A stretch of DNA of 64,000 nucleotides from Escherichia phage vB_EcoM_ESCO47. Made by a program: the position numbers and the translations under genes. The stretch lies in the sequence record OM386662.1; one strand, given 5' to 3'. Shown piece after piece: positions 8,428-31,208 of this stretch. Position 1 is the first letter of the stretch, and every line of letters starts with the position of its first letter. Below the pieces are notes generated by a model, which made no database searches, was not told the DNA's origin, and saw only the letters and a program-made list of their open reading frames with translations.

Positions 8428-8462
8428 GTTTACATTATAGATGGACTATAGTATAGTAGTCC
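8428..8462 (+). promoter_or_regulatory. early promoter-like element with inverted repeat around -10
   Basis: -35 GTTTAC 8428-8433, -10 TATAGT 8452-8457 inside GGACTA...TAGTCC repeat 8443-8462; ATG at 8487. Confidence 0.5.
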
Positions 8463-8486
8463 TATCAAATCAACTAAGGAGATAAA

Positions 8487-26467: not shown

Positions 26468-27403
26468 ATGTACAATATCAAATGCTTGTCCCAAGAAGAA
26501 CAGTTAGAAGCTTACGGCCTGGTTGAATCAGGCAAATGGACCCGTAAAGAAATTGCCGATTACTTTGACATTTCAACAGATACTCTTCGTAAGATTGTTA
26601 AGAATTTTAAAGCTGAAGAGAAAGCCTCTGAATTTGAAGACGAAGAACAGGTCCCAGAAAATAATGAACCTATTATTACAGGTCATCGTCCAGAAATCGT
26701 ATGGAACGCGTCGTCTAAATTTATTTCAATTATTGAAGGACGCGATTCATATAATGCGACACCAACAAGCCATGCGAATTTTGAAGAAATTAAAGCTAAT
26801 TTGGTCGCAGGAAACTTTGCTAAAGCTATCGAACTTATTAACCTCAAGAAAGCTATTACTAAGTATGTTGATGGTAATATTATTATTGAAGGTGGTCGCC
26901 TATTTTATCAAGGAATAGAAATTCGTTCAGGACTTGTCGATCGTATTATCGACTCTATGGAAAAAGGCGAAGACTTTAAATTTTATCTGCCATTCCTTGA
27001 AAACTTGTTAGAAAACCCAAGTGAAAAAGCAGTTCAACGCTTATTCGACTTCTTGGTTGCAAACGATATTGAAATCACTGAAGACGGTCATTTCTACGCA
27101 TGGAAAGTAGTTCGTAAAGACTATTTAGATTGCTATAGTGGCACATTTGATAACTCGCCTGGTAAAGTTGTTTCAATGCCTCGTACTCGTGTTAACGATG
27201 ATGATACTCAAACTTGTTCCAGTGGTCTACATGTTTGTGCTAAATCATATATTCGTTACTTTGGTTCTAGCTCAGATAAAGTTGTTAAGGTTAAAGTTCA
27301 TCCACGTGATGTTGTATCCATCCCAGTTGACTACGGTGATGCTAAGATGCGTACTTGTCGTTATGAAGTAATTTCAGACGTTACTGAATTATTTGCAGAA
27401 TAA
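26468..27403 (+). CDS. rIIB: rIIB protein
   Basis: 311 aa; MYNIKCL... and C-terminal half closely match T4 rIIB as I recall it. Confidence 0.93.
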   Translation: MYNIKCLSQEEQLEAYGLVESGKWTRKEIADYFDISTDTLRKIVKNFKAEEKASEFEDEEQVPENNEPIITGHRPEIVWNASSKFISIIEGRDSYNATPTSHANFEEIKANLVAGNFAKAIELINLKKAITKYVDGNIIIEGGRLFYQGIEIRSGLVDRIIDSMEKGEDFKFYLPFLENLLENPSEKAVQRLFDFLVANDIEITEDGHFYAWKVVRKDYLDCYSGTFDNSPGKVVSMPRTRVNDDDTQTCSSGLHVCAKSYIRYFGSSSDKVVKVKVHPRDVVSIPVDYGDAKMRTCRYEVISDVTELFAE

Positions 27404-27408
27404 TAATT

Positions 27409-27431
27409 GGGGACTTCGGTCCCCTTTTTTC
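27409..27431 (+). terminator. rho-independent terminator after rIIB
   Basis: GGGGAC-TTCG-GTCCCC then TTTTTT. Confidence 0.75.
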
Positions 27432-27444
27432 TTTAGGGGTAATT

Positions 27445-27732
27445 ATGATTCATCCATTTGACGTATCAGAATCCAAAATTGCTAATCTTCGCGGTCATCA
27501 TAAGTGTAAATCAGTTTATTGTGCTAAATTGGTAAAACATCCTGGCGATGCACACTACGGCTGGTTAGAATGTGACGAAGTTGTTATTGAAATCCCTCCT
27601 GTGGATGCAGAATACCTTGAAGAAGGTGATCGCATTTATTTAGGTGAACTACATATTAGAGGTATCTATGGTAAAGACGAACTTGGGACTACTGAGACTG
27701 AAGAGTCTTCCGACATTTATCCTGTCGAATGA
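27445..27732 (+). CDS. hypothetical protein (95 aa)
   Basis: Follows rIIB terminator; Cys/His-containing N-terminal half. Confidence 0.5.
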   Translation: MIHPFDVSESKIANLRGHHKCKSVYCAKLVKHPGDAHYGWLECDEVVIEIPPVDAEYLEEGDRIYLGELHIRGIYGKDELGTTETEESSDIYPVE

Positions 27733-27748
27733 GTTTCTGACTAGCGAA

Positions 27749-28225
27749 ATGAAGGTAAAGATCGCGGATACAGCCAAGTATTCTCTTAGTCAAGACCCTG
27801 ATCAAATCAAAGAAGACGTAGTTCGTCGTTGTAAGGTTGCAGTCTTTGCCGAGTATGTAGTCGCTAATTGGTTAGATGGATATGTTAATAAAGGCATTGA
27901 AGATGTTGAAGACCCTTACACGTATGCATGGGATGTTCTAGCTCATCCTAAATACTGTGGATTGCGTGTAGAAGTCAAGACTCATCAGATGGACTCACGT
28001 TGGATTTCAGTCACTACAGGATATAGTGGCGATTATCCGGGTGGTAATGGAATCAATATAGGGCCCTTCTTGAATCATCGAGTCGCAGATTGCATTATTA
28101 TATTAAATGCCAAAGAAACCTCACCTGACGTCTTCTCTTATTCTATAAAGTTCGCGGGAGACCATGAAGACCTAAAGAAAATCGTCCGCAAGAGCAACTA
28201 CAACGGGTGGTATCTTCATCTTTAA
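27749..28225 (+). CDS. putative PD-(D/E)xK-type nuclease (DenB position)
   Basis: D...EVK-like motif WDVLAHPKYCGLRVEVKT; start ambiguous (GTG 27644, ATG 27668 with AGAGG, or ATG 27749). Confidence 0.4.
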   Translation: MKVKIADTAKYSLSQDPDQIKEDVVRRCKVAVFAEYVVANWLDGYVNKGIEDVEDPYTYAWDVLAHPKYCGLRVEVKTHQMDSRWISVTTGYSGDYPGGNGINIGPFLNHRVADCIIILNAKETSPDVFSYSIKFAGDHEDLKKIVRKSNYNGWYLHL

Positions 28226-28237
28226 TTTCATAAAAGT

Positions 28238-28273
28238 GTTTACAGCTAAGTAGGACTATGATATAGTAGTCCT
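28238..28273 (+). promoter_or_regulatory. early promoter-like element with inverted repeat
   Basis: -35 GTTTAC 28238-28243, -10 TATAGT 28262-28267; arms AGGACTA 28252-28258 and TAGTCCT 28267-28273; ATG at 28294. Confidence 0.5.
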
Positions 28274-28293
28274 ATCTAAAGGAGGATAACATC

Positions 28294-28557
28294 ATGAAAT
28301 TTAAATTTTTCTACGCAAAACATAAAGTGACCGGTGAGTTTGTTTCAATGTACAACACCGCAGATGACGAAGGGATGATTTATACCCATTTGGGTCTATC
28401 TCATTGGGATTCAGACGTGCCTTATATGTCATCTGAAGCCGAAATAACTCGTCTGGTTAATGGACATATGAACGACCATTTTGGTGTTATTCTTTCTAAA
28501 GACCTTAAAGAGGTTATCAACAAAGGATATATGGAACTCGCGGAAGTTGAGATATGA
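28294..28557 (+). CDS. hypothetical protein (87 aa)
   Basis: Promoter element and GGAGGA RBS upstream. Confidence 0.5.
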   Translation: MKFKFFYAKHKVTGEFVSMYNTADDEGMIYTHLGLSHWDSDVPYMSSEAEITRLVNGHMNDHFGVILSKDLKEVINKGYMELAEVEI

Positions 28558-28640
28558 GCTCTAAAATGTGGATAGGAATATGGTTGCTTAGTATCCCAAT
28601 GATTTGTATAATATTTTCAATTGCATTGAGGTACTTATGA
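28554..28640 (+). CDS. hydrophobic micro-protein (28 aa)
   Basis: ATGA-coupled to upstream ORF; single predicted TM segment. Confidence 0.25.
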   Translation: MSSKMWIGIWLLSIPMICIIFSIALRYL

Positions 28641-28747
28641 AAAATGCACTTCTTATTGTACTAAGAACAATTTGTGATACGGGTTTTTACATTGCATGTT
28701 CGTTCACTGGAACATGGTTGGCTTTAACATATTTTAATGTAATTTAA
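28637..28747 (+). CDS. hydrophobic micro-protein (36 aa)
   Basis: ATGA-coupled to preceding micro-ORF; hydrophobic. Confidence 0.25.
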   Translation: MKNALLIVLRTICDTGFYIACSFTGTWLALTYFNVI

Positions 28748-28749
28748 TT

Positions 28750-28779
28750 GTTTACATCAAGGTAGGATTATGGTATAGT
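28750..28779 (+). promoter_or_regulatory. early promoter-like element
   Basis: -35 GTTTAC 28750-28755, -10 TATAGT 28774-28779, then AGTCCTATCAA; ATG at 28808. Confidence 0.5.
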
Positions 28780-28807
28780 AGTCCTATCAAAATATGAGGA
28801 ACACAAA

Positions 28808-29008
28808 ATGACTAAGCTTTTTAAAGATGTTGAAATTGGTGAAAAATTTGTCCTGAATAATGGTCAGCAGCTTATTCGTGTAGCTTCTATAGCCGGACAA
28901 ACTCATAACTGCATCGCCCCGACGTATTGGACCCGATTCTTTATTGAGGATGACACCGAATGTTTAACTGTTGAAGAGCTTTTTGAACGTTCTGATATAA
29001 CCGAATAA
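28808..29008 (+). CDS. hypothetical protein (66 aa)
   Basis: Promoter element and GAGGAA RBS upstream. Confidence 0.45.
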   Translation: MTKLFKDVEIGEKFVLNNGQQLIRVASIAGQTHNCIAPTYWTRFFIEDDTECLTVEELFERSDITE

Positions 29009-29010
29009 AA

Positions 29011-29046
29011 TTGTACAAACTCCTGAGAGCAGAGTATAATGCTCTC
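29011..29046 (+). promoter_or_regulatory. promoter-like element (TTGTAC type) with inverted repeat
   Basis: TTGTAC 29011-29016, -10 TATAAT 29035-29040; arms GAGAGCA 29025-29031 and TGCTCTC 29040-29046; near-identical copy at 56780; ATG at 29085. Confidence 0.5.
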
Positions 29047-29084
29047 ATGGATTACAAAACATCAACTTACTTGAGGAAATTTAT

Positions 29085-29534
29085 ATGAACAATTACATGA
29101 CTCGTCGCGATATCCTGGCAGCTGGTGGTACTACGGTTGCTTACGTTCAGAATGGTAAATACCAGTCAGGTGAACCATCTAAAGCGGTTGCAGCACAACC
29201 TGGATTCTACTTCTTTGTTAAAGGTTTTAGTAACTCTCGTGTAGTAGCTGCCCGGTTTTATGTAGGTAATCAACGTTCTAAACAGGGACTTGATGGTATT
29301 GTAGCTAATATCCGTAAACAACGTTCTCAAGCTGCTCGCACCATGGCCACCAACAACGTAATTTACGAAGTGTTATACGTCCCAGCATCTAAGATGAAAC
29401 CTCTGACAACCGGCATTGGTAAAAGACAGTTAGTGATGGCTTTCACTCGCAATCACAGTTCAGATCTACAGACACTGGAAGAAATGAACCGAATTCTGGC
29501 CGACAACTTTAAATTCATCTTACAGAGTTACTAA
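29085..29534 (+). CDS. ndd: nucleoid disruption protein Ndd-like
   Basis: 149 aa; [13 protein letters not shown]...[12 protein letters not shown]...TLEEMNR.LADNFKF matches T4 Ndd as I recall it; position between rIIB and 52. Confidence 0.6.
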
Positions 29535-29576
29535 TCCGGTAATAAAACGGCGTCTTAGGACGCCACTGGGGAAATT

Positions 29577-29741
29577 ATGCAACCGATTTTAACTTTTATC
29601 TGGTTAGTGACTGTTATTGTGTTGGTAACCCTTTTTGCAGCAGGTGTATGGGTTCCAGGTCCTTTTGTTGTTGGATTTATTTGTGTGTGGTTCATACTAG
29701 ACGCAATCGTTAAATTTTTAGTAACGGTATTTAACCGATGA
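29577..29741 (+). CDS. small membrane protein (54 aa)
   Basis: Hydrophobic; between ndd and 52 where T4 carries small peptides (stp/ac region). Confidence 0.4.
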   Translation: MQPILTFIWLVTVIVLVTLFAAGVWVPGPFVVGFICVWFILDAIVKFLVTVFNR

Positions 29742-29878
29742 TTAAACAAATCTTTGGCTACTCGATAGCCCTTGCTGCTTTATTAGTGGCATTATATTAT
29801 GGTGTTATGTTCGGGCTAATCCAAGTCGTGCTTTTCATTTCTGATGTTATTATGGCACTACATTCACTAGTATGGTAA
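29738..29878 (+). CDS. small membrane protein (46 aa)
   Basis: ATGA-coupled to upstream ORF; hydrophobic. Confidence 0.35.
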   Translation: MIKQIFGYSIALAALLVALYYGVMFGLIQVVLFISDVIMALHSLVW

Positions 29879-29882
29879 ATTT

Positions 29883-31208
29883 ATGCAACTGAATAATCGT
29901 GATTTAAAAAGTATTATTGATAATGAAGCACTAGCGTATGCAATGTATACGGTTGAAAACCGTGCAATCCCAAACATGATTGATGGGTTTAAACCGGTTC
30001 AACGATTTGTTATTCATCGTGCATTGGACTTGGCTCGTGGAAACAAAGAAAAATTCCATAAACTGGCTTCAATCGCTGGTGGTGTAGCTGATCTCGGTTA
30101 TCACCACGGTGAATCTTCAGCACAAGATGCCGGTGCTCTGATGGCTAACACATGGAATAACAACTATCCATTATTAGATGGACAAGGCAACTTTGGTTCA
30201 CGAACGGTTCAAAAGGCTGCAGCATCTCGTTATATTTTTGCTCGTATCAGTAAAAATTTCTATAACGTCTATAAAGATTCTGAGTATGCTCCAGAACATG
30301 AAGATAAAGAACACGTTCCACCAAAATTCTATCTTCCAATTATCCCGACGGTTCTATTGAACGGTGTTTCTGGTATCGCAACCGGGTATGCAACAAGCAT
30401 TCTGCCTCATAGTTTTAAATCTGTTAAGAAGGCTGTATTACAAGCTCTTCAAGGTAAAAATATCACTAAGCCTAAAGTTGAATTCCCAGAGTTTCGCGGC
30501 GAAGTGCATGAAGTTGAAGACCGATATGAAATTCACGGCACATATAAATTCACATCTCGGACTCAAATGCAAATCACCGAGATTCCATATAAATTTGATC
30601 GTGAAACGTATGTGAGTAAAGTTCTCGACCCGTTAGAAGATAAAGGGTTGATTACATGGGAAGATGACTGCGGTGAACATGGTTTCGGATTTAAGGTGAA
30701 GTTCCGTAAAGAGTATTCGCTTCCGGACGATGAAGCTCTTCGTCATGAGAAAATCATGAAAGACTTTAGTCTTATTGAACGTCGTTCCCAGAACATTACT
30801 GTTATCAATGAAAAAGGCAAGTTGGCTGTATATGATAACGTTGTTGATTTGATTAAAGATTTTGTTGAAGTCCGTAAGACTTACGTTCAAAAACGTATTG
30901 ACAACAAAATCGTTGAATCAGAAAAAGCTTTTAAACTAGCTTTTGCCAAGGCGCATTTTATCAAGAAAGTTATTGCCGGTGAAATCGTGATTCAAGGCAA
31001 GACTCGTAAAGCTTTGACCGAAGAGTTATCACAAGTGGAAATGTATAAAGAACATGTAGACAAGTTAGTAGGTCTTAACATCTTCCATATCACATCAGAT
31101 GAAGCACGTAAACTAGCAGAAGAAGCTAAAGCTAAGAAAGAAGAAAATGAGTACTGGAAATCTACAGATGTCGTAGCAGAGTACACTAAAGACCTGGAGT
31201 CTCTATGA
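29883..31208 (+). CDS. 52: DNA topoisomerase II medium subunit gp52 (GyrA-like)
   Basis: 441 aa; MIDGFKPVQRFV motif. Confidence 0.93.
   Translation: MQLNNRDLKSIIDNEALAYAMYTVENRAIPNMIDGFKPVQRFVIHRALDLARGNKEKFHKLASIAGGVADLGYHHGESSAQDAGALMANTWNNNYPLLDGQGNFGSRTVQKAAASRYIFARISKNFYNVYKDSEYAPEHEDKEHVPPKFYLPIIPTVLLNGVSGIATGYATSILPHSFKSVKKAVLQALQGKNITKPKVEFPEFRGEVHEVEDRYEIHGTYKFTSRTQMQITEIPYKFDRETYVSKVLDPLEDKGLITWEDDCGEHGFGFKVKFRKEYSLPDDEALRHEKIMKDFSLIERRSQNITVINEKGKLAVYDNVVDLIKDFVEVRKTYVQKRIDNKIVESEKAFKLAFAKAHFIKKVIAGEIVIQGKTRKALTEELSQVEMYKEHVDKLVGLNIFHITSDEARKLAEEAKAKKEENEYWKSTDVVAEYTKDLESL

What the first reader, a model, noticed from the sequence alone, without database searches (positions are those of the whole stretch)
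28554..28747. Two translationally coupled hydrophobic micro-ORFs
28-aa and 36-aa hydrophobic peptides are chained by ATGA overlaps to the preceding gene and to each other, and end just before a promoter element. The coupling pattern argues they are translated.
Basis: seen in the sequence. Interest (0 to 1): 0.35.

Follow-up and report, generated by a model that had tools for sequence, protein, structure and literature searches.

The report
Two small phage membrane-peptide genes
The two tiny hydrophobic reading frames are real, conserved early genes of an RB69-like T-even phage: the first is the counterpart of T4 gene ndd.6 and the second is specific to this phage genus, so the finding is correct but already catalogued and of unknown function.

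Summary
ORF A (28554-28640, 28 aa) and ORF B (28637-28747, 36 aa) are chained by ATGA stop/start overlaps to an 87-aa gene and to each other. ORF B ends 3 nt before an early promoter.

The window is an RB69-like Mosigvirus, and the locus lies between denB and ndd. ORF A is the orthologue of T4 Ndd.6 (phrog_8851). It is found in Mosigvirus, Tequatrovirus, Dhakavirus and Gelderlandvirus. Synonymous sites are near saturation between genera while ten residues never change, and six of these lie on one face of the predicted helix.

ORF B (phrog_18561) occurs only in Mosigvirus. It sits where T4 has ndd.5 but is not detectably related to it. Its frame is intact in nearly all of 152 genomes and under moderate purifying selection (pN/pS 0.28-0.45).

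Published T4 data class ndd.5 and ndd.6 RNA as early, did not detect the proteins, and found no fitness effect on knock-down.

Most likely both are non-essential inner-membrane micro-proteins made from one early operon by translational coupling. The operon is a 512-bp cassette bounded by repeated promoter/stem-loop elements. Function is unknown. Novelty: already known. Interest: low.

The parts
28221..28280 (+). Upstream copy of a 60-nt direct repeat. It is a T4-type early promoter (-35 TTTACA at 28239-28244, -10 TATAGT at 28262-28267) with a 10-bp stem-loop at 28250-28275 that spans the -10 hexamer. This matches the published PeSL (promoter-early stem-loop) type.
   Evidence: Promoter scan, 10 of 12 consensus positions plus an extended TG. 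Direct repeat D1, 82% identity, spacing 512 nt. Stem-loop folds at -13.2 kcal/mol, z = -3.0. The composite motif occurs 3 times in the window against 0 expected.
28294..28557 (+). First gene of the operon: an 87-aa soluble protein, homologue of RB69ORF270c and PST ORF268 (phrog_2390). It has a strong Shine-Dalgarno sequence, AAAGGAGG, at 28278-28285. Its TGA stop overlaps the ORF A start codon.
   Evidence: Shine-Dalgarno duplex energy -11.6 kcal/mol. pN/pS 0.07. AlphaFold2 model with pLDDT 89 has no significant PDB fold match.
28554..28640 (+). ORF A: a 28-aa predicted single-pass membrane micro-protein, the orthologue of T4 Ndd.6. Its own Shine-Dalgarno sequence is weak (GGAAG). Its ATG overlaps the upstream TGA (ATGA at 28554-28557).
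   Evidence: phrog_8851, E = 1.9e-10, profile positions 1-28 of 28; z = 9.6. Shine-Dalgarno duplex energy -3.6 kcal/mol.
28628..28631 (+). GAGG Shine-Dalgarno sequence for ORF B, lying inside the ORF A codons Leu25-Arg26 and 5 nt before the ORF B ATG.
   Evidence: Sequence. Duplex energy -6.9 kcal/mol, similar to the free-standing genes ndd.1 (-6.3) and ndd (-6.2). The same GAGG precedes ndd.5 in T4.
28637..28747 (+). ORF B: a 36-aa hydrophobic micro-protein specific to Mosigvirus (phrog_18561). It occupies the position that ndd.5 holds in T4. Its ATG overlaps the ORF A TGA (ATGA at 28637-28640).
   Evidence: 152 records, all Mosigvirus-type; E = 1.4e-29; a single 50%-identity cluster among 1.84 billion representatives; pN/pS 0.45 and 0.28.
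28733..28792 (+). Downstream copy of the 60-nt repeat, which is the early promoter for ndd.1 (-35 at 28751-28756, -10 at 28774-28779) with an 11-bp stem-loop at 28761-28788. It overlaps the last five codons of ORF B and closes the 512-bp cassette.
   Evidence: -13.7 kcal/mol, z = -6.1. In phage OLB35 (L057) the sequence diverges exactly here and changes the ORF B C-terminus.

Best explanation
Both frames are genuine early protein-coding genes in the hyperplastic region between denB and ndd of an RB69-like T-even phage.

Expression. A PeSL-type early promoter at 28239-28267 drives a three-gene operon: the 87-aa RB69ORF270c homologue, then ORF A, then ORF B. Ribosomes load at the strong Shine-Dalgarno sequence of the first gene. 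They pass to ORF A by termination-reinitiation at the ATGA overlap, because ORF A's own Shine-Dalgarno sequence is weak. They reach ORF B by a second ATGA overlap helped by a GAGG embedded in ORF A.

ORF A is the orthologue of T4 Ndd.6. It is a 28-residue peptide that is essentially one transmembrane helix. The conserved C-terminal basic residue suggests that the C-terminus faces the cytoplasm. The invariant residues W6, W10, I14, I17, C18 and F21 lie on one helix face next to an invariant P15. I infer from this that it docks onto a specific partner helix in the inner membrane, either a host membrane protein or copies of itself, rather than acting as a generic detergent-like peptide.

ORF B is a second hydrophobic micro-protein specific to this lineage. 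It occupies a slot that holds the unrelated ndd.5 in T4 and is empty in Dhakavirus and Gelderlandvirus. This fits cassette exchange at the flanking PeSL repeats.

Both are accessory factors for host takeover or adaptation and are dispensable in laboratory hosts.

Shown here: the anatomy, orthology, frame conservation and purifying selection. Taken from T4 papers: early transcription and non-essentiality. Inferred: translation, membrane insertion, the coupling mechanism and partner binding.
For: Identity and synteny:
- The window is 96-97% identical to RB69-type phages, and the gene order is rIIB, denB, ORF270c, [A, B], ndd.1, ndd, ac, 52.1, 52.

ORF A is Ndd.6:
- Searches support this.
- The family occurs in four genera.
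- Ser2-Ser3 is encoded as AGC-TCT, AGT-TCA, AGT-AGC, AGC-AGC or AGC-AGT in different genera.
- Between genera pS is 0.7-1.0 for most pairs and pN is 0.12-0.40.
- Within the genus pN/pS is 0.10-0.12.

Start site and independence:
- The overlapping start is TTG in many Dhakavirus loci. In L033 and L034 the internal ATG is lost, so only the overlapping TTG can start the ORF.
- In the loci examined, TTG starts go with a strong AAAGAGGTG or AAGGAGGTG Shine-Dalgarno sequence. The two Dhakavirus ATG starts go with a weaker one.
- In Gelderlandvirus the gene stands alone with its own early promoter and an AAGAGG Shine-Dalgarno sequence.
- T4 has lost the upstream genes, yet it keeps an in-frame 8-codon ORF (MKIAEIEL) that still ends in ATGA on the ndd.6 start.

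Conserved helix face:
- The conservation helical moment is 3.84, against 1.57 +/- 0.79 in permutations (p = 0.0045).

ORF B:
- tblastn finds it in all 152 Mosigvirus records with the locus.
- An in-frame codon deletion occurs in PNJ-9-type phages.
- pN/pS is 0.28 with p = 0.006 (16 sequences) or 0.45 with p = 0.035 (20 sequences). The other frames give about 0.9-1.0.

Expression signals and published data:
- Shine-Dalgarno duplex energies are -11.6, -3.6 and -6.9 kcal/mol for the three genes in order.
- The flanking 60-nt repeats carry stem-loops, as described for PeSL elements (PMC4122927).
- In T4, ndd.5 and ndd.6 transcripts are classed as early (PMC9697503 Table S2).
- CRISPRi-ART knock-down of T4 ndd.5 and ndd.6 scored 'Not Fit', meaning no fitness effect (PMC11879866 supplement).
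- The T4 deletion saDelta9, which removes 52.1 through denB, is still viable (PMC6071114).
- No Rfam family matches the region and no minus-strand ORF of 20 aa or more lies within it.
Against: - There is no direct evidence of translation. T4 proteomics lists Ndd.5 and Ndd.6 protein as not detected. A 28-32-aa hydrophobic peptide with few tryptic sites is hard to detect, so this is weak evidence against.
- The existence of the ORFs is not itself beyond chance.
- ORF B is less constrained than its neighbours. It is frameshifted in at least 3 of the 152 records (F2, KAW3E185, PECP20), always at homopolymer runs, so these could be sequencing errors or real losses.
- The variant counts come from 16-20 sequences that I chose partly for their divergence, and they are not corrected for phylogeny.
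- Membrane insertion, topology and partner binding are inferred from sequence only. The helix-face test rests on four genera and assumes an ideal helix despite P15.
- Coupling is inferred from the overlaps and the Shine-Dalgarno strengths and has not been measured.
Confidence: 0.7

Rival explanations
1. ORF A is a real gene, but ORF B matters only through the act of being translated, or is a decaying remnant. On this view, keeping ribosomes on the early transcript up to the next promoter/stem-loop protects the RNA from Rho-dependent polarity or from decay, and the peptide itself has no function.
For: - ORF B is restricted to one genus and has no detectable relatives.
- Its slot is empty in Dhakavirus and Gelderlandvirus and holds an unrelated ORF in T4.
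- Its pN/pS of 0.28-0.45 is higher than the 0.07-0.12 of its neighbours.
- At least three records carry frameshifts.
- Its hydrophobicity is only in about the top 11% of small ORFs.
Against: - A role in cis would not constrain the amino-acid sequence, yet synonymous changes are enriched in this frame only (p = 0.006-0.035). The other two frames give about 0.9-1.0.
- The non-synonymous changes seen in the 16 intact sequences are mostly conservative (L6I, R10K, I12F, T15A, T26S, F33L).
- The one length variant among the intact sequences is a whole-codon deletion.
- A dedicated GAGG Shine-Dalgarno sequence is kept.
Confidence: 0.2
2. The peptides damage the membrane in the manner of bacterial type I toxins or holin-like peptides. 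They would oligomerise in the inner membrane, depolarise or permeabilise it, and so contribute to host shut-off.
For: - Their size, hydrophobicity and single-helix architecture resemble small membrane toxins. This comparison rests on my own knowledge and was not tested here.
- Expression is early.
- The neighbouring T4 gene ac is annotated as an acridine-resistance predicted membrane protein. From my own knowledge it changes cell permeability to acridines.
- A conserved helix face fits self-association as well as it fits binding to a partner.
Against: - Early depolarisation would hurt a phage that needs an energised host for about 25 minutes.
- Knock-down of T4 ndd.5 and ndd.6 has no fitness effect, and the saDelta9 deletion is viable.
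- No match was found in 72,556 plasmid records, and PHROGs matches only the phage families.
- No toxicity data exist.
Confidence: 0.15
3. ORF A and ORF B form an obligate two-subunit membrane complex, and the ATGA coupling exists to make them in equal amounts.
For: - The two are chained by an overlap, as are ndd.6 and ndd.5 in T4.
- Both are hydrophobic.
Against: - Ndd.6 homologues occur with no second micro-ORF in Dhakavirus and Gelderlandvirus.
- The partner in T4 (ndd.5, phrog_5011) is unrelated to ORF B (phrog_18561), with an alignment z of about 1.
- ORF B is frameshifted in some genomes in which ORF A is intact.
Confidence: 0.1
4. The 194 nt are not coding. On this view they are a spacer, regulatory RNA or promoter-upstream element, and the ORFs are by-products of a T-rich, AT-rich sequence.
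For: - Open frames of this size are common in shuffled sequence of the same composition.
- The last 15 nt of ORF B belong to the repeated promoter element.
- The RB69 reference annotation leaves the interval empty.
Against: - The substitution pattern is frame-specific in both ORFs.
- ORF A is conserved at the protein level across genera with synonymous sites saturated and serine codon families switched.
- The ORF A homologue has its own promoter and Shine-Dalgarno sequence in Gelderlandvirus.
- There is no Rfam match.
- In 16 Mosigvirus sequences, variant density is higher in the true intergenic stretch (0.25 per nt) than in ORF A (0.11) or ORF B (0.18).
Confidence: 0.03

Closest known systems
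T4 Ndd.6 (gene ndd.6, T4p275, UniProt P39248; PHROG phrog_8851, labelled 'outer membrane protein')
   Same: - ORF A has the same length (28 aa) and 14 of 28 identical residues.
- It shares the motif M-S-S-x-x-W-x-x-x-W-x-x-[SC]-I-P-x-I-C-x-x-F-[ST].
- It sits in the same place, downstream of denB, and is followed by a second micro-ORF joined by ATGA.
- It is driven by the same type of early promoter.
   Different: - ORF A is 50% diverged from T4 Ndd.6.
- It has K4, which T4 lacks.
- In T4 the upstream 87-aa gene is reduced to an 8-codon ORF.
- The label 'outer membrane protein' is an old prediction with no experiment behind it. A 28-residue single hydrophobic helix is more plausibly an inner-membrane peptide (my inference).
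T4 Ndd.5 (T4p274, UniProt P39247; phrog_5011)
   Same: ORF B occupies the same position, immediately after ndd.6. It uses the same ATGA overlap and the same GAGG in the last codons of ndd.6. Its size is similar (36 against 32 aa), it is also hydrophobic, and it also ends just before a promoter.
   Different: There is no detectable sequence relationship. The global and local alignment z-scores are about 1 (p about 0.15), and the two belong to different PHROGs, which are built by remote-homology clustering. ORF B is either a non-orthologous replacement or has diverged beyond recognition.
phrog_18561, annotated as 'hypothetical protein' or 'putative transmembrane protein' in Mosigvirus genomes (e.g. 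phage 55 WEW54150.1, JS09)
   Same: ORF B matches the profile over its full length, positions 1-36 of 36, at E = 1.4e-29. It is 100% identical to the copy in many records, RB69 included.
   Different: None. ORF B is a member of this family. RB69's own reference annotation simply omits it.
PeSL (promoter-early stem-loop) cassettes of T4-like phages (Arbiol 2010; Comeau 2014, PMC4122927)
   Same: The three-gene unit is bounded by two 60-nt direct repeats. Each repeat holds a TTTACA-N17-TATAGT early promoter with a stem-loop. The gene content between denB and ndd differs between genera exactly at these elements.
   Different: Here the stem-loop spans the -10 hexamer and is 10-11 bp long (TAGGAYTA...TAGTCCTA). 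The paper does not cover RB69-type phages, so I did not compare with the published consensus for them. Recombination at these repeats is inferred and has not been observed.
Bacterial small inner-membrane regulators (AcrZ, MgrB, MgtS, KdpF and similar) and the T4 Ac and gp52.1 peptides next door
   Same: They are single-helix peptides under 55 aa that act by binding a larger membrane protein. The conserved helix face of Ndd.6 fits that mode of action. T4 ac and 52.1 are small predicted membrane proteins in the same gene cluster. This analogy comes from my own knowledge.
   Different: There is no sequence similarity, no known partner and no experiment. The comparison describes how the peptide might work and is not a claim that it belongs to any of these families.

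Membership tests
Ndd.6 family (phrog_8851), tested for ORF A | Full-length match to the family profile | tested here: met
   E = 1.9e-10, residues 1-28 on profile positions 1-28 of 28. For comparison, T4 Ndd.6 scores 1.6e-17 and a Dhakavirus member 1.9e-15 on the same profile.
Ndd.6 family (phrog_8851), tested for ORF A | Pairwise similarity to T4 Ndd.6 beyond what composition alone would give | tested here: met
   BLOSUM62 global score 84 against 23.9 +/- 6.3 in 3000 shuffles (z = 9.6). None of the other T4 ndd.x peptides, ac or 52.1 exceeds z = 1.8.
Ndd.6 family (phrog_8851), tested for ORF A | Position downstream of denB and upstream of ndd, on the early strand, behind an early promoter | tested here: met
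Ndd.6 family (phrog_8851), tested for ORF A | A translated, membrane-located product | not testable with these tools
   The only data are from T4: transcript class early, protein not detected. Hydropathy predicts one transmembrane helix.
Ndd.5 family (phrog_5011), tested for ORF B | Sequence match to the family | tested here: not met
   ORF B hits only phrog_18561, and T4 Ndd.5 hits phrog_5011. The pairwise z-score is about 1.
Ndd.5 family (phrog_5011), tested for ORF B | Second micro-ORF joined to ndd.6 by ATGA and ending before the next early promoter | tested here: met
   This shows the same position only.
phrog_18561 (Mosigvirus 36-aa protein), tested for ORF B | Full-length profile match | tested here: met
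   E = 1.4e-29, positions 1-36 of 36. 152 phage records, all Mosigvirus-type. One 50%-identity cluster among 1.84 billion representatives.
Translationally coupled operon (termination-reinitiation at overlapping stop and start codons) | A 4-nt NTGA overlap of stop and start, conserved in relatives | tested here: met
   ATGA at 28554 and 28637. ATGA in Tequatrovirus, ATGA or TTGA in Dhakavirus, and the T4 8-codon leader ORF also ends in ATGA.
Translationally coupled operon (termination-reinitiation at overlapping stop and start codons) | Downstream expression depends on translation of the upstream ORF | not testable with these tools
   Support is indirect only. The ORF A Shine-Dalgarno sequence is weak (-3.6 kcal/mol, against -11.6 for the first gene). 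Against strict dependence, two metagenomic Mosigviruses carry an amber codon at position 38 of the upstream gene, and the Gelderlandvirus gene is monocistronic.
PeSL-bounded cassette (Comeau 2014, PMC4122927) | Early promoter combined with a stem-loop, repeated on both sides of variable ORFs | tested here: met
   60-nt repeats 82% identical and 512 nt apart. Stem-loops fold at -13.2 and -13.7 kcal/mol, z = -3.0 and -6.1. The motif occurs 3 times in the window against 0 expected.
PeSL-bounded cassette (Comeau 2014, PMC4122927) | Recombination or mini-circle excision at the repeats | not tested
   Only circumstantial evidence: gene content differs between genera at these points, and OLB35 diverges from the start of the downstream repeat.
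Type I toxin or small membrane toxin | Toxicity on expression, and an antisense RNA or other antidote | not testable with these tools
   There is no Rfam match on either strand and no minus-strand ORF. Toxicity is unknown.

The most novel reading that the evidence does not exclude
Ndd.6 (ORF A) is a conserved 28-residue transmembrane 'adaptor'. It would use its invariant W6-W10-I14-(I17/C18)-F21 face to bind and re-programme a specific host inner-membrane protein. One candidate outcome is the unexplained stimulation of phosphatidylglycerol synthesis, which Kutter et al. 2018 report is blocked in T4 saDelta9, the deletion that removes 52.1 through denB. On this reading, the variable second micro-ORF (ORF B, ndd.5 or none) tunes that activity to different hosts.
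Probability: 0.1. Interest if true: 0.5.

Novelty: already known. Interest (0 to 1): 0.15.

Why it matters
The practical value is small. ORF A (87 nt) is left out of many Mosigvirus annotations, including the RB69 reference, and it is also unannotated in phage PST and in a Gelderlandvirus genome. ORF B is missing from RB69 too. Both should be annotated, ORF A as ndd.6.

Biologically, Ndd.6 is one of the shortest phage genes seen in all four T-even genera I examined. It has a sharply defined conserved helix face, which makes it a tractable candidate for finding a host membrane target. The locus is also a tidy example of how T-even phages swap micro-genes between promoter/stem-loop repeats while keeping translational coupling. 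T4's 8-codon leader ORF shows this well.

None of this changes current understanding. The function of these peptides remains unknown.

Tried and rejected
ORF A is too short for that tool, for the representative search and for structure prediction.
- The exhaustive phmmer search with ORF B found only its own cluster, so nothing bridges it to ndd.5.
- I compared ORF B with every small T4 peptide of the region (ndd.2, 2a, 3, 4, 5, 6, ac, 52.1). None was significant, so I dropped the idea that ORF B is a diverged ndd.5 or ndd.2.
- Pfam gave nothing for any of the four proteins I scanned (ORF A, ORF B, the 87-aa protein and ndd.1). Rfam gave nothing on either strand.
- tblastn with the Gelderlandvirus Ndd.6 variant returned no match, not even to itself. 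I attribute this to BLAST's low-complexity filter, so it says nothing about distribution. tblastn of ORF A against plasmids also found nothing.
- I tried to get at the operon's function through its first gene. The AlphaFold2 model of the 87-aa protein is confident (pLDDT 89, pTM 0.77), but Foldseek against the PDB gave no hit with E below 0.35.
- A terminator-like hairpin at 28695-28716 inside ORF B is weak (3 G-C pairs, poor T-run). The scan found 4 such sites in 27000-30500 against 2.2 +/- 1.4 expected, so I treated it as chance.
- The shuffle test showed that ORF presence alone is not evidence.
- Literature searches for ribosome profiling of T4 small proteins found nothing relevant. The main text of the HIDEN-SEQ preprint on T4 does not mention the ndd genes.
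Full report
**What is there.**
- An 87-aa ORF (28294-28557) ends in TGA, and that stop overlaps the ATG of a 28-aa ORF. I call this ORF A (28554-28640, MSSKMWIGIWLLSIPMICIIFSIALRYL).
- The TGA of ORF A overlaps the ATG of a 36-aa ORF, ORF B (28637-28747, MKNALLIVLRTICDTGFYIACSFTGTWLALTYFNVI).
- Three nucleotides after the ORF B stop comes a promoter: TTTACA, 17 nt, TATAGT, at 28751-28779.
- A near-identical promoter at 28239-28267 precedes the 87-aa gene, which has a strong AAAGGAGG Shine-Dalgarno sequence.
- No ORF of 20 aa or more lies on the minus strand within the interval, and no Rfam family matches it.

**Is it more than chance?**
The ORFs alone are not. In 23% of dinucleotide-preserving shuffles of the 194 nt, open stretches of 25 or more codons cover at least 95% of the segment. 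ATGA junctions are also common in this kind of genome, for example at 29738-29741. Hydrophobicity is unusual for ORF A (GRAVY 1.53, a value reached by 3.1% of 295 small ORFs in the window) and less so for ORF B (1.07, where 10.8% reach 1.0). The verdict therefore rests on comparison with relatives.

**Context.**
The window is an RB69-like Mosigvirus, a T-even phage, 96-97% identical to phages a20, RB69 and others over this stretch. The gene order is rIIB, ORF272c, denB, RB69ORF270c (the 87-aa gene), [ORF A, ORF B], ndd.1, ndd, an ac-like gene, 52.1 and gene 52.

Annotation of the two small ORFs varies. The RB69 reference leaves the interval empty. Phage 55 annotates both as 'putative transmembrane protein' with ribosome-binding sites. 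In the records I fetched that annotate the interval, ORF B is usually listed and ORF A is not. ORF A is 87 nt, which from my own knowledge is below the 90-nt minimum of common gene callers.

**ORF A is Ndd.6.**
T4 carries six small annotated genes, ndd.2 to ndd.6, between denB and ndd.1. T4 Ndd.6 (MSSLWWCFVWLISIPVICLTFTFVMRLL) has the same length as ORF A and 14 of 28 identical residues. The alignment score is 9.6 standard deviations above shuffles, and no other small peptide of the region exceeds z = 1.8. ORF A matches phrog_8851 end to end at E = 1.9e-10, as do T4 Ndd.6 and a Dhakavirus homologue. tblastn finds ORF A-like sequences in 757 phage records.

I found the gene in four genera:
- **Mosigvirus and Tequatrovirus.** It follows the 87-aa gene through an ATGA overlap.
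- **Dhakavirus.** The overlap is either ATGA or TTGA. In the TTGA loci the start is a TTG preceded by a strong AAAGAGGTG or AAGGAGGTG. The Ser-Ser-Lys codons upstream of the first internal ATG are retained. In L033 and L034 that internal ATG is gone, so the overlapping TTG is the only possible start.
- **Gelderlandvirus.** In Salmonella phage UTK0003 the 29-aa gene stands alone between denB and ndd, with its own early promoter and an AAGAGG Shine-Dalgarno sequence. It is unannotated there.

**Selection on ORF A.**
Between genera, synonymous differences are near saturation (pS 0.7-1.0 for most pairs) while pN is 0.12-0.40. Ser2-Ser3 switches between the AGY and TCN codon families. Within 20 Mosigvirus sequences there are 7 synonymous and 3 non-synonymous variants (L11F, I20V, A24V). 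That gives pN/pS 0.10 and p = 6e-4, against 0.9-2.3 for the other two frames. With 16 sequences the value is 0.12. These counts are simple site counts on a sample I chose partly for divergence, and they are not corrected for phylogeny.

**A conserved helix face.**
Ten positions never vary in the four genera: M1, S2, S3, W6, W10, I14, P15, I17, C18 and F21. On an ideal helix, W6, W10, I14, I17, C18 and F21 fall within a 120-degree arc. The conservation moment is 3.84, against 1.57 +/- 0.79 in permutations (p = 0.0045). A basic residue near the C-terminus (R26 or K27) is nearly always present. I read this as a single transmembrane helix that makes a specific helix-helix contact. This is inference from sequence.

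**ORF B.**
It matches phrog_18561 over its full length at E = 1.4e-29. It occurs in 152 phage records, all Mosigvirus-type. It forms a single 50%-identity cluster among 1.84 billion protein representatives.

It sits where T4 has ndd.5. The ATGA overlap is the same, and so is the GAGG formed by the Arg codon near the end of ndd.6. However, the two peptides are not detectably related (z about 1, different PHROGs). Dhakavirus and Gelderlandvirus have no second micro-ORF at all.

Within Mosigvirus:
- The frame is intact in nearly all records.
- PNJ-9-type phages have a whole-codon deletion.
- At least three records (F2, KAW3E185, PECP20) have single-base indels at A, G or T runs.
- OLB35 has a different C-terminus. 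Its sequence diverges from the others starting at the beginning of the downstream repeat.
- Variants split 11 synonymous to 16 non-synonymous in all 20 sequences (pN/pS 0.45, p = 0.035). Without the four aberrant sequences they split 10 to 9 (pN/pS 0.28, p = 0.006). The other frames give about 0.9-1.0.

ORF B is therefore under purifying selection in its own frame, though less strongly than ORF A (0.10-0.12) or the 87-aa gene (0.07).

**Expression.**
Predicted pairing with the 16S rRNA tail is -11.6 kcal/mol for the 87-aa gene, -3.6 for ORF A and -6.9 for ORF B. The free-standing ndd.1 and ndd give about -6.3 and -6.2. This fits ribosomes loading at the first gene and reaching ORF A mainly by reinitiation at the overlap, with ORF B helped by its own Shine-Dalgarno sequence. 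That mechanism is inferred.

For T4, published data class ndd.5 and ndd.6 RNA as early and list the proteins as not detected (PMC9697503 Table S2). CRISPRi-ART knock-down of either gene gives no fitness effect (PMC11879866 supplement). The saDelta9 deletion, which removes 52.1 through denB, still grows at about half the wild-type yield and loses the infection-induced rise in phosphatidylglycerol synthesis. The review states that the products of ndd.1 to ndd.6 are unknown (PMC6071114).

**The cassette.**
The two promoters are part of 60-nt direct repeats at 28221-28280 and 28733-28792. They are 82% identical and 512 nt apart. Each holds a 10-11-bp stem-loop across the -10 hexamer, folding at -13.2 and -13.7 kcal/mol. 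A third copy lies at 8428-8464. These match the 'promoter-early stem-loop' (PeSL) elements that Comeau et al. proposed as sites of cassette exchange in T4-like phages, with this very region as one of their examples (PMC4122927). The different contents of the slot after ndd.6 (ORF B, ndd.5 or nothing) fit that picture.

**Verdict.**
ORF A is the RB69-type orthologue of T4 ndd.6, and ORF B is an already catalogued gene specific to Mosigvirus. Both are best explained as early, non-essential micro-proteins of the inner membrane, made from one coupled operon. Their function is unknown. My preferred mechanism for ORF A is specific binding to a membrane partner, and I rate it at about 40%.

My confidence by claim:

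| Claim | Confidence |
|---|---|
| ORF A is a functional gene | about 0.9 |
| ORF B is a functional gene | about 0.7 |
| Coupling mechanism as described | about 0.6 |

The finding is ordinary for a T-even genome and already known, so interest is low.

Noticed in passing
L004 (T4 NC_000866, record 166993-167019, minus strand) compared with L062 (PST KF208315): T4 lacks about 480 nt that are present in PST and other Tequatroviruses. The deletion joins the Shine-Dalgarno sequence and ATG of ORF269 to the last 7 codons of ORF268, the homologue of the 87-aa gene. This leaves an unannotated 8-codon ORF (MKIAEIEL) whose TGA still overlaps the ndd.6 ATG. The junction shows AAATG microhomology.
   Followed up: yes
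L062 1735-1916, minus strand (Yersinia phage PST): ndd.6 and ndd.5 are present in PST but not annotated. Comeau 2014 fig. 6A describes an 'exchange of ndd.4/.5 in T4 for ORF268/269 in PST'. This is better described as an insertion or deletion of ORF268/269 upstream of ndd.6.
   Followed up: yes
window 29085-29740: The ndd gene and the ac-like gene of this phage have no DNA match at about 85% identity or more in 50,697 phage records. Only the 52.1 end (from about 29728) matches. Their proteins resemble the Dhakavirus type rather than the RB69 type. This is a mosaic module that begins at about 29082, just downstream of the promoter at 29012-29040.
   Followed up: partly
window 8428-8464, 28238-28274 and 28750-28786: Three copies of a composite early promoter plus stem-loop motif (GTTTACA...TAGGAYTATGRTATAGTAGTCCTA), against 0 expected by chance. 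These are probable PeSL elements of the RB69 type.
   Followed up: partly
L005/L023 and L038 (metagenomic Mosigviruses), codon 38 of the 87-aa gene; equivalent to window 28406: A TGG-to-TAG amber mutation truncates the first gene of the operon in two independent contigs, while ORF A and ORF B stay intact. An in-frame internal ATG could restart translation as a 43-aa product.
   Followed up: no
L008/L027 (Escherichia phage vB_EcoM_G8): A 2-nt insertion (GG) just before the ndd.6 stop fuses ndd.6 to an 83-aa out-of-frame ORF. ndd.5 remains intact. This may be a sequencing error or a natural frameshift.
   Followed up: no
L029, L032-L037, L045, L046 compared with L030, L031 (Dhakavirus): The start codon and the Shine-Dalgarno sequence of ndd.6 vary together. 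TTG starts are paired with AAAGAGGTG or AAGGAGGTG, and ATG starts with the weaker AAAGAGATA.
   Followed up: partly
window 28294-28557: The 87-aa RB69ORF270c homologue (phrog_2390) gives a confident AlphaFold2 model of mixed alpha/beta structure (pLDDT 89), but it has no significant match in the PDB and no Pfam family. It appears to be a small fold of unknown function seen so far only in T-even-type phages.
   Followed up: partly
L060 (Escherichia phage ESCO10, OM386655): The annotation in this record looks wrong. The homologue of the 87-aa gene is labelled 'immunity to superinfection membrane protein', and neighbouring small ORFs are labelled 'DNA-directed DNA polymerase' and 'clamp loader small subunit'.
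   Followed up: no
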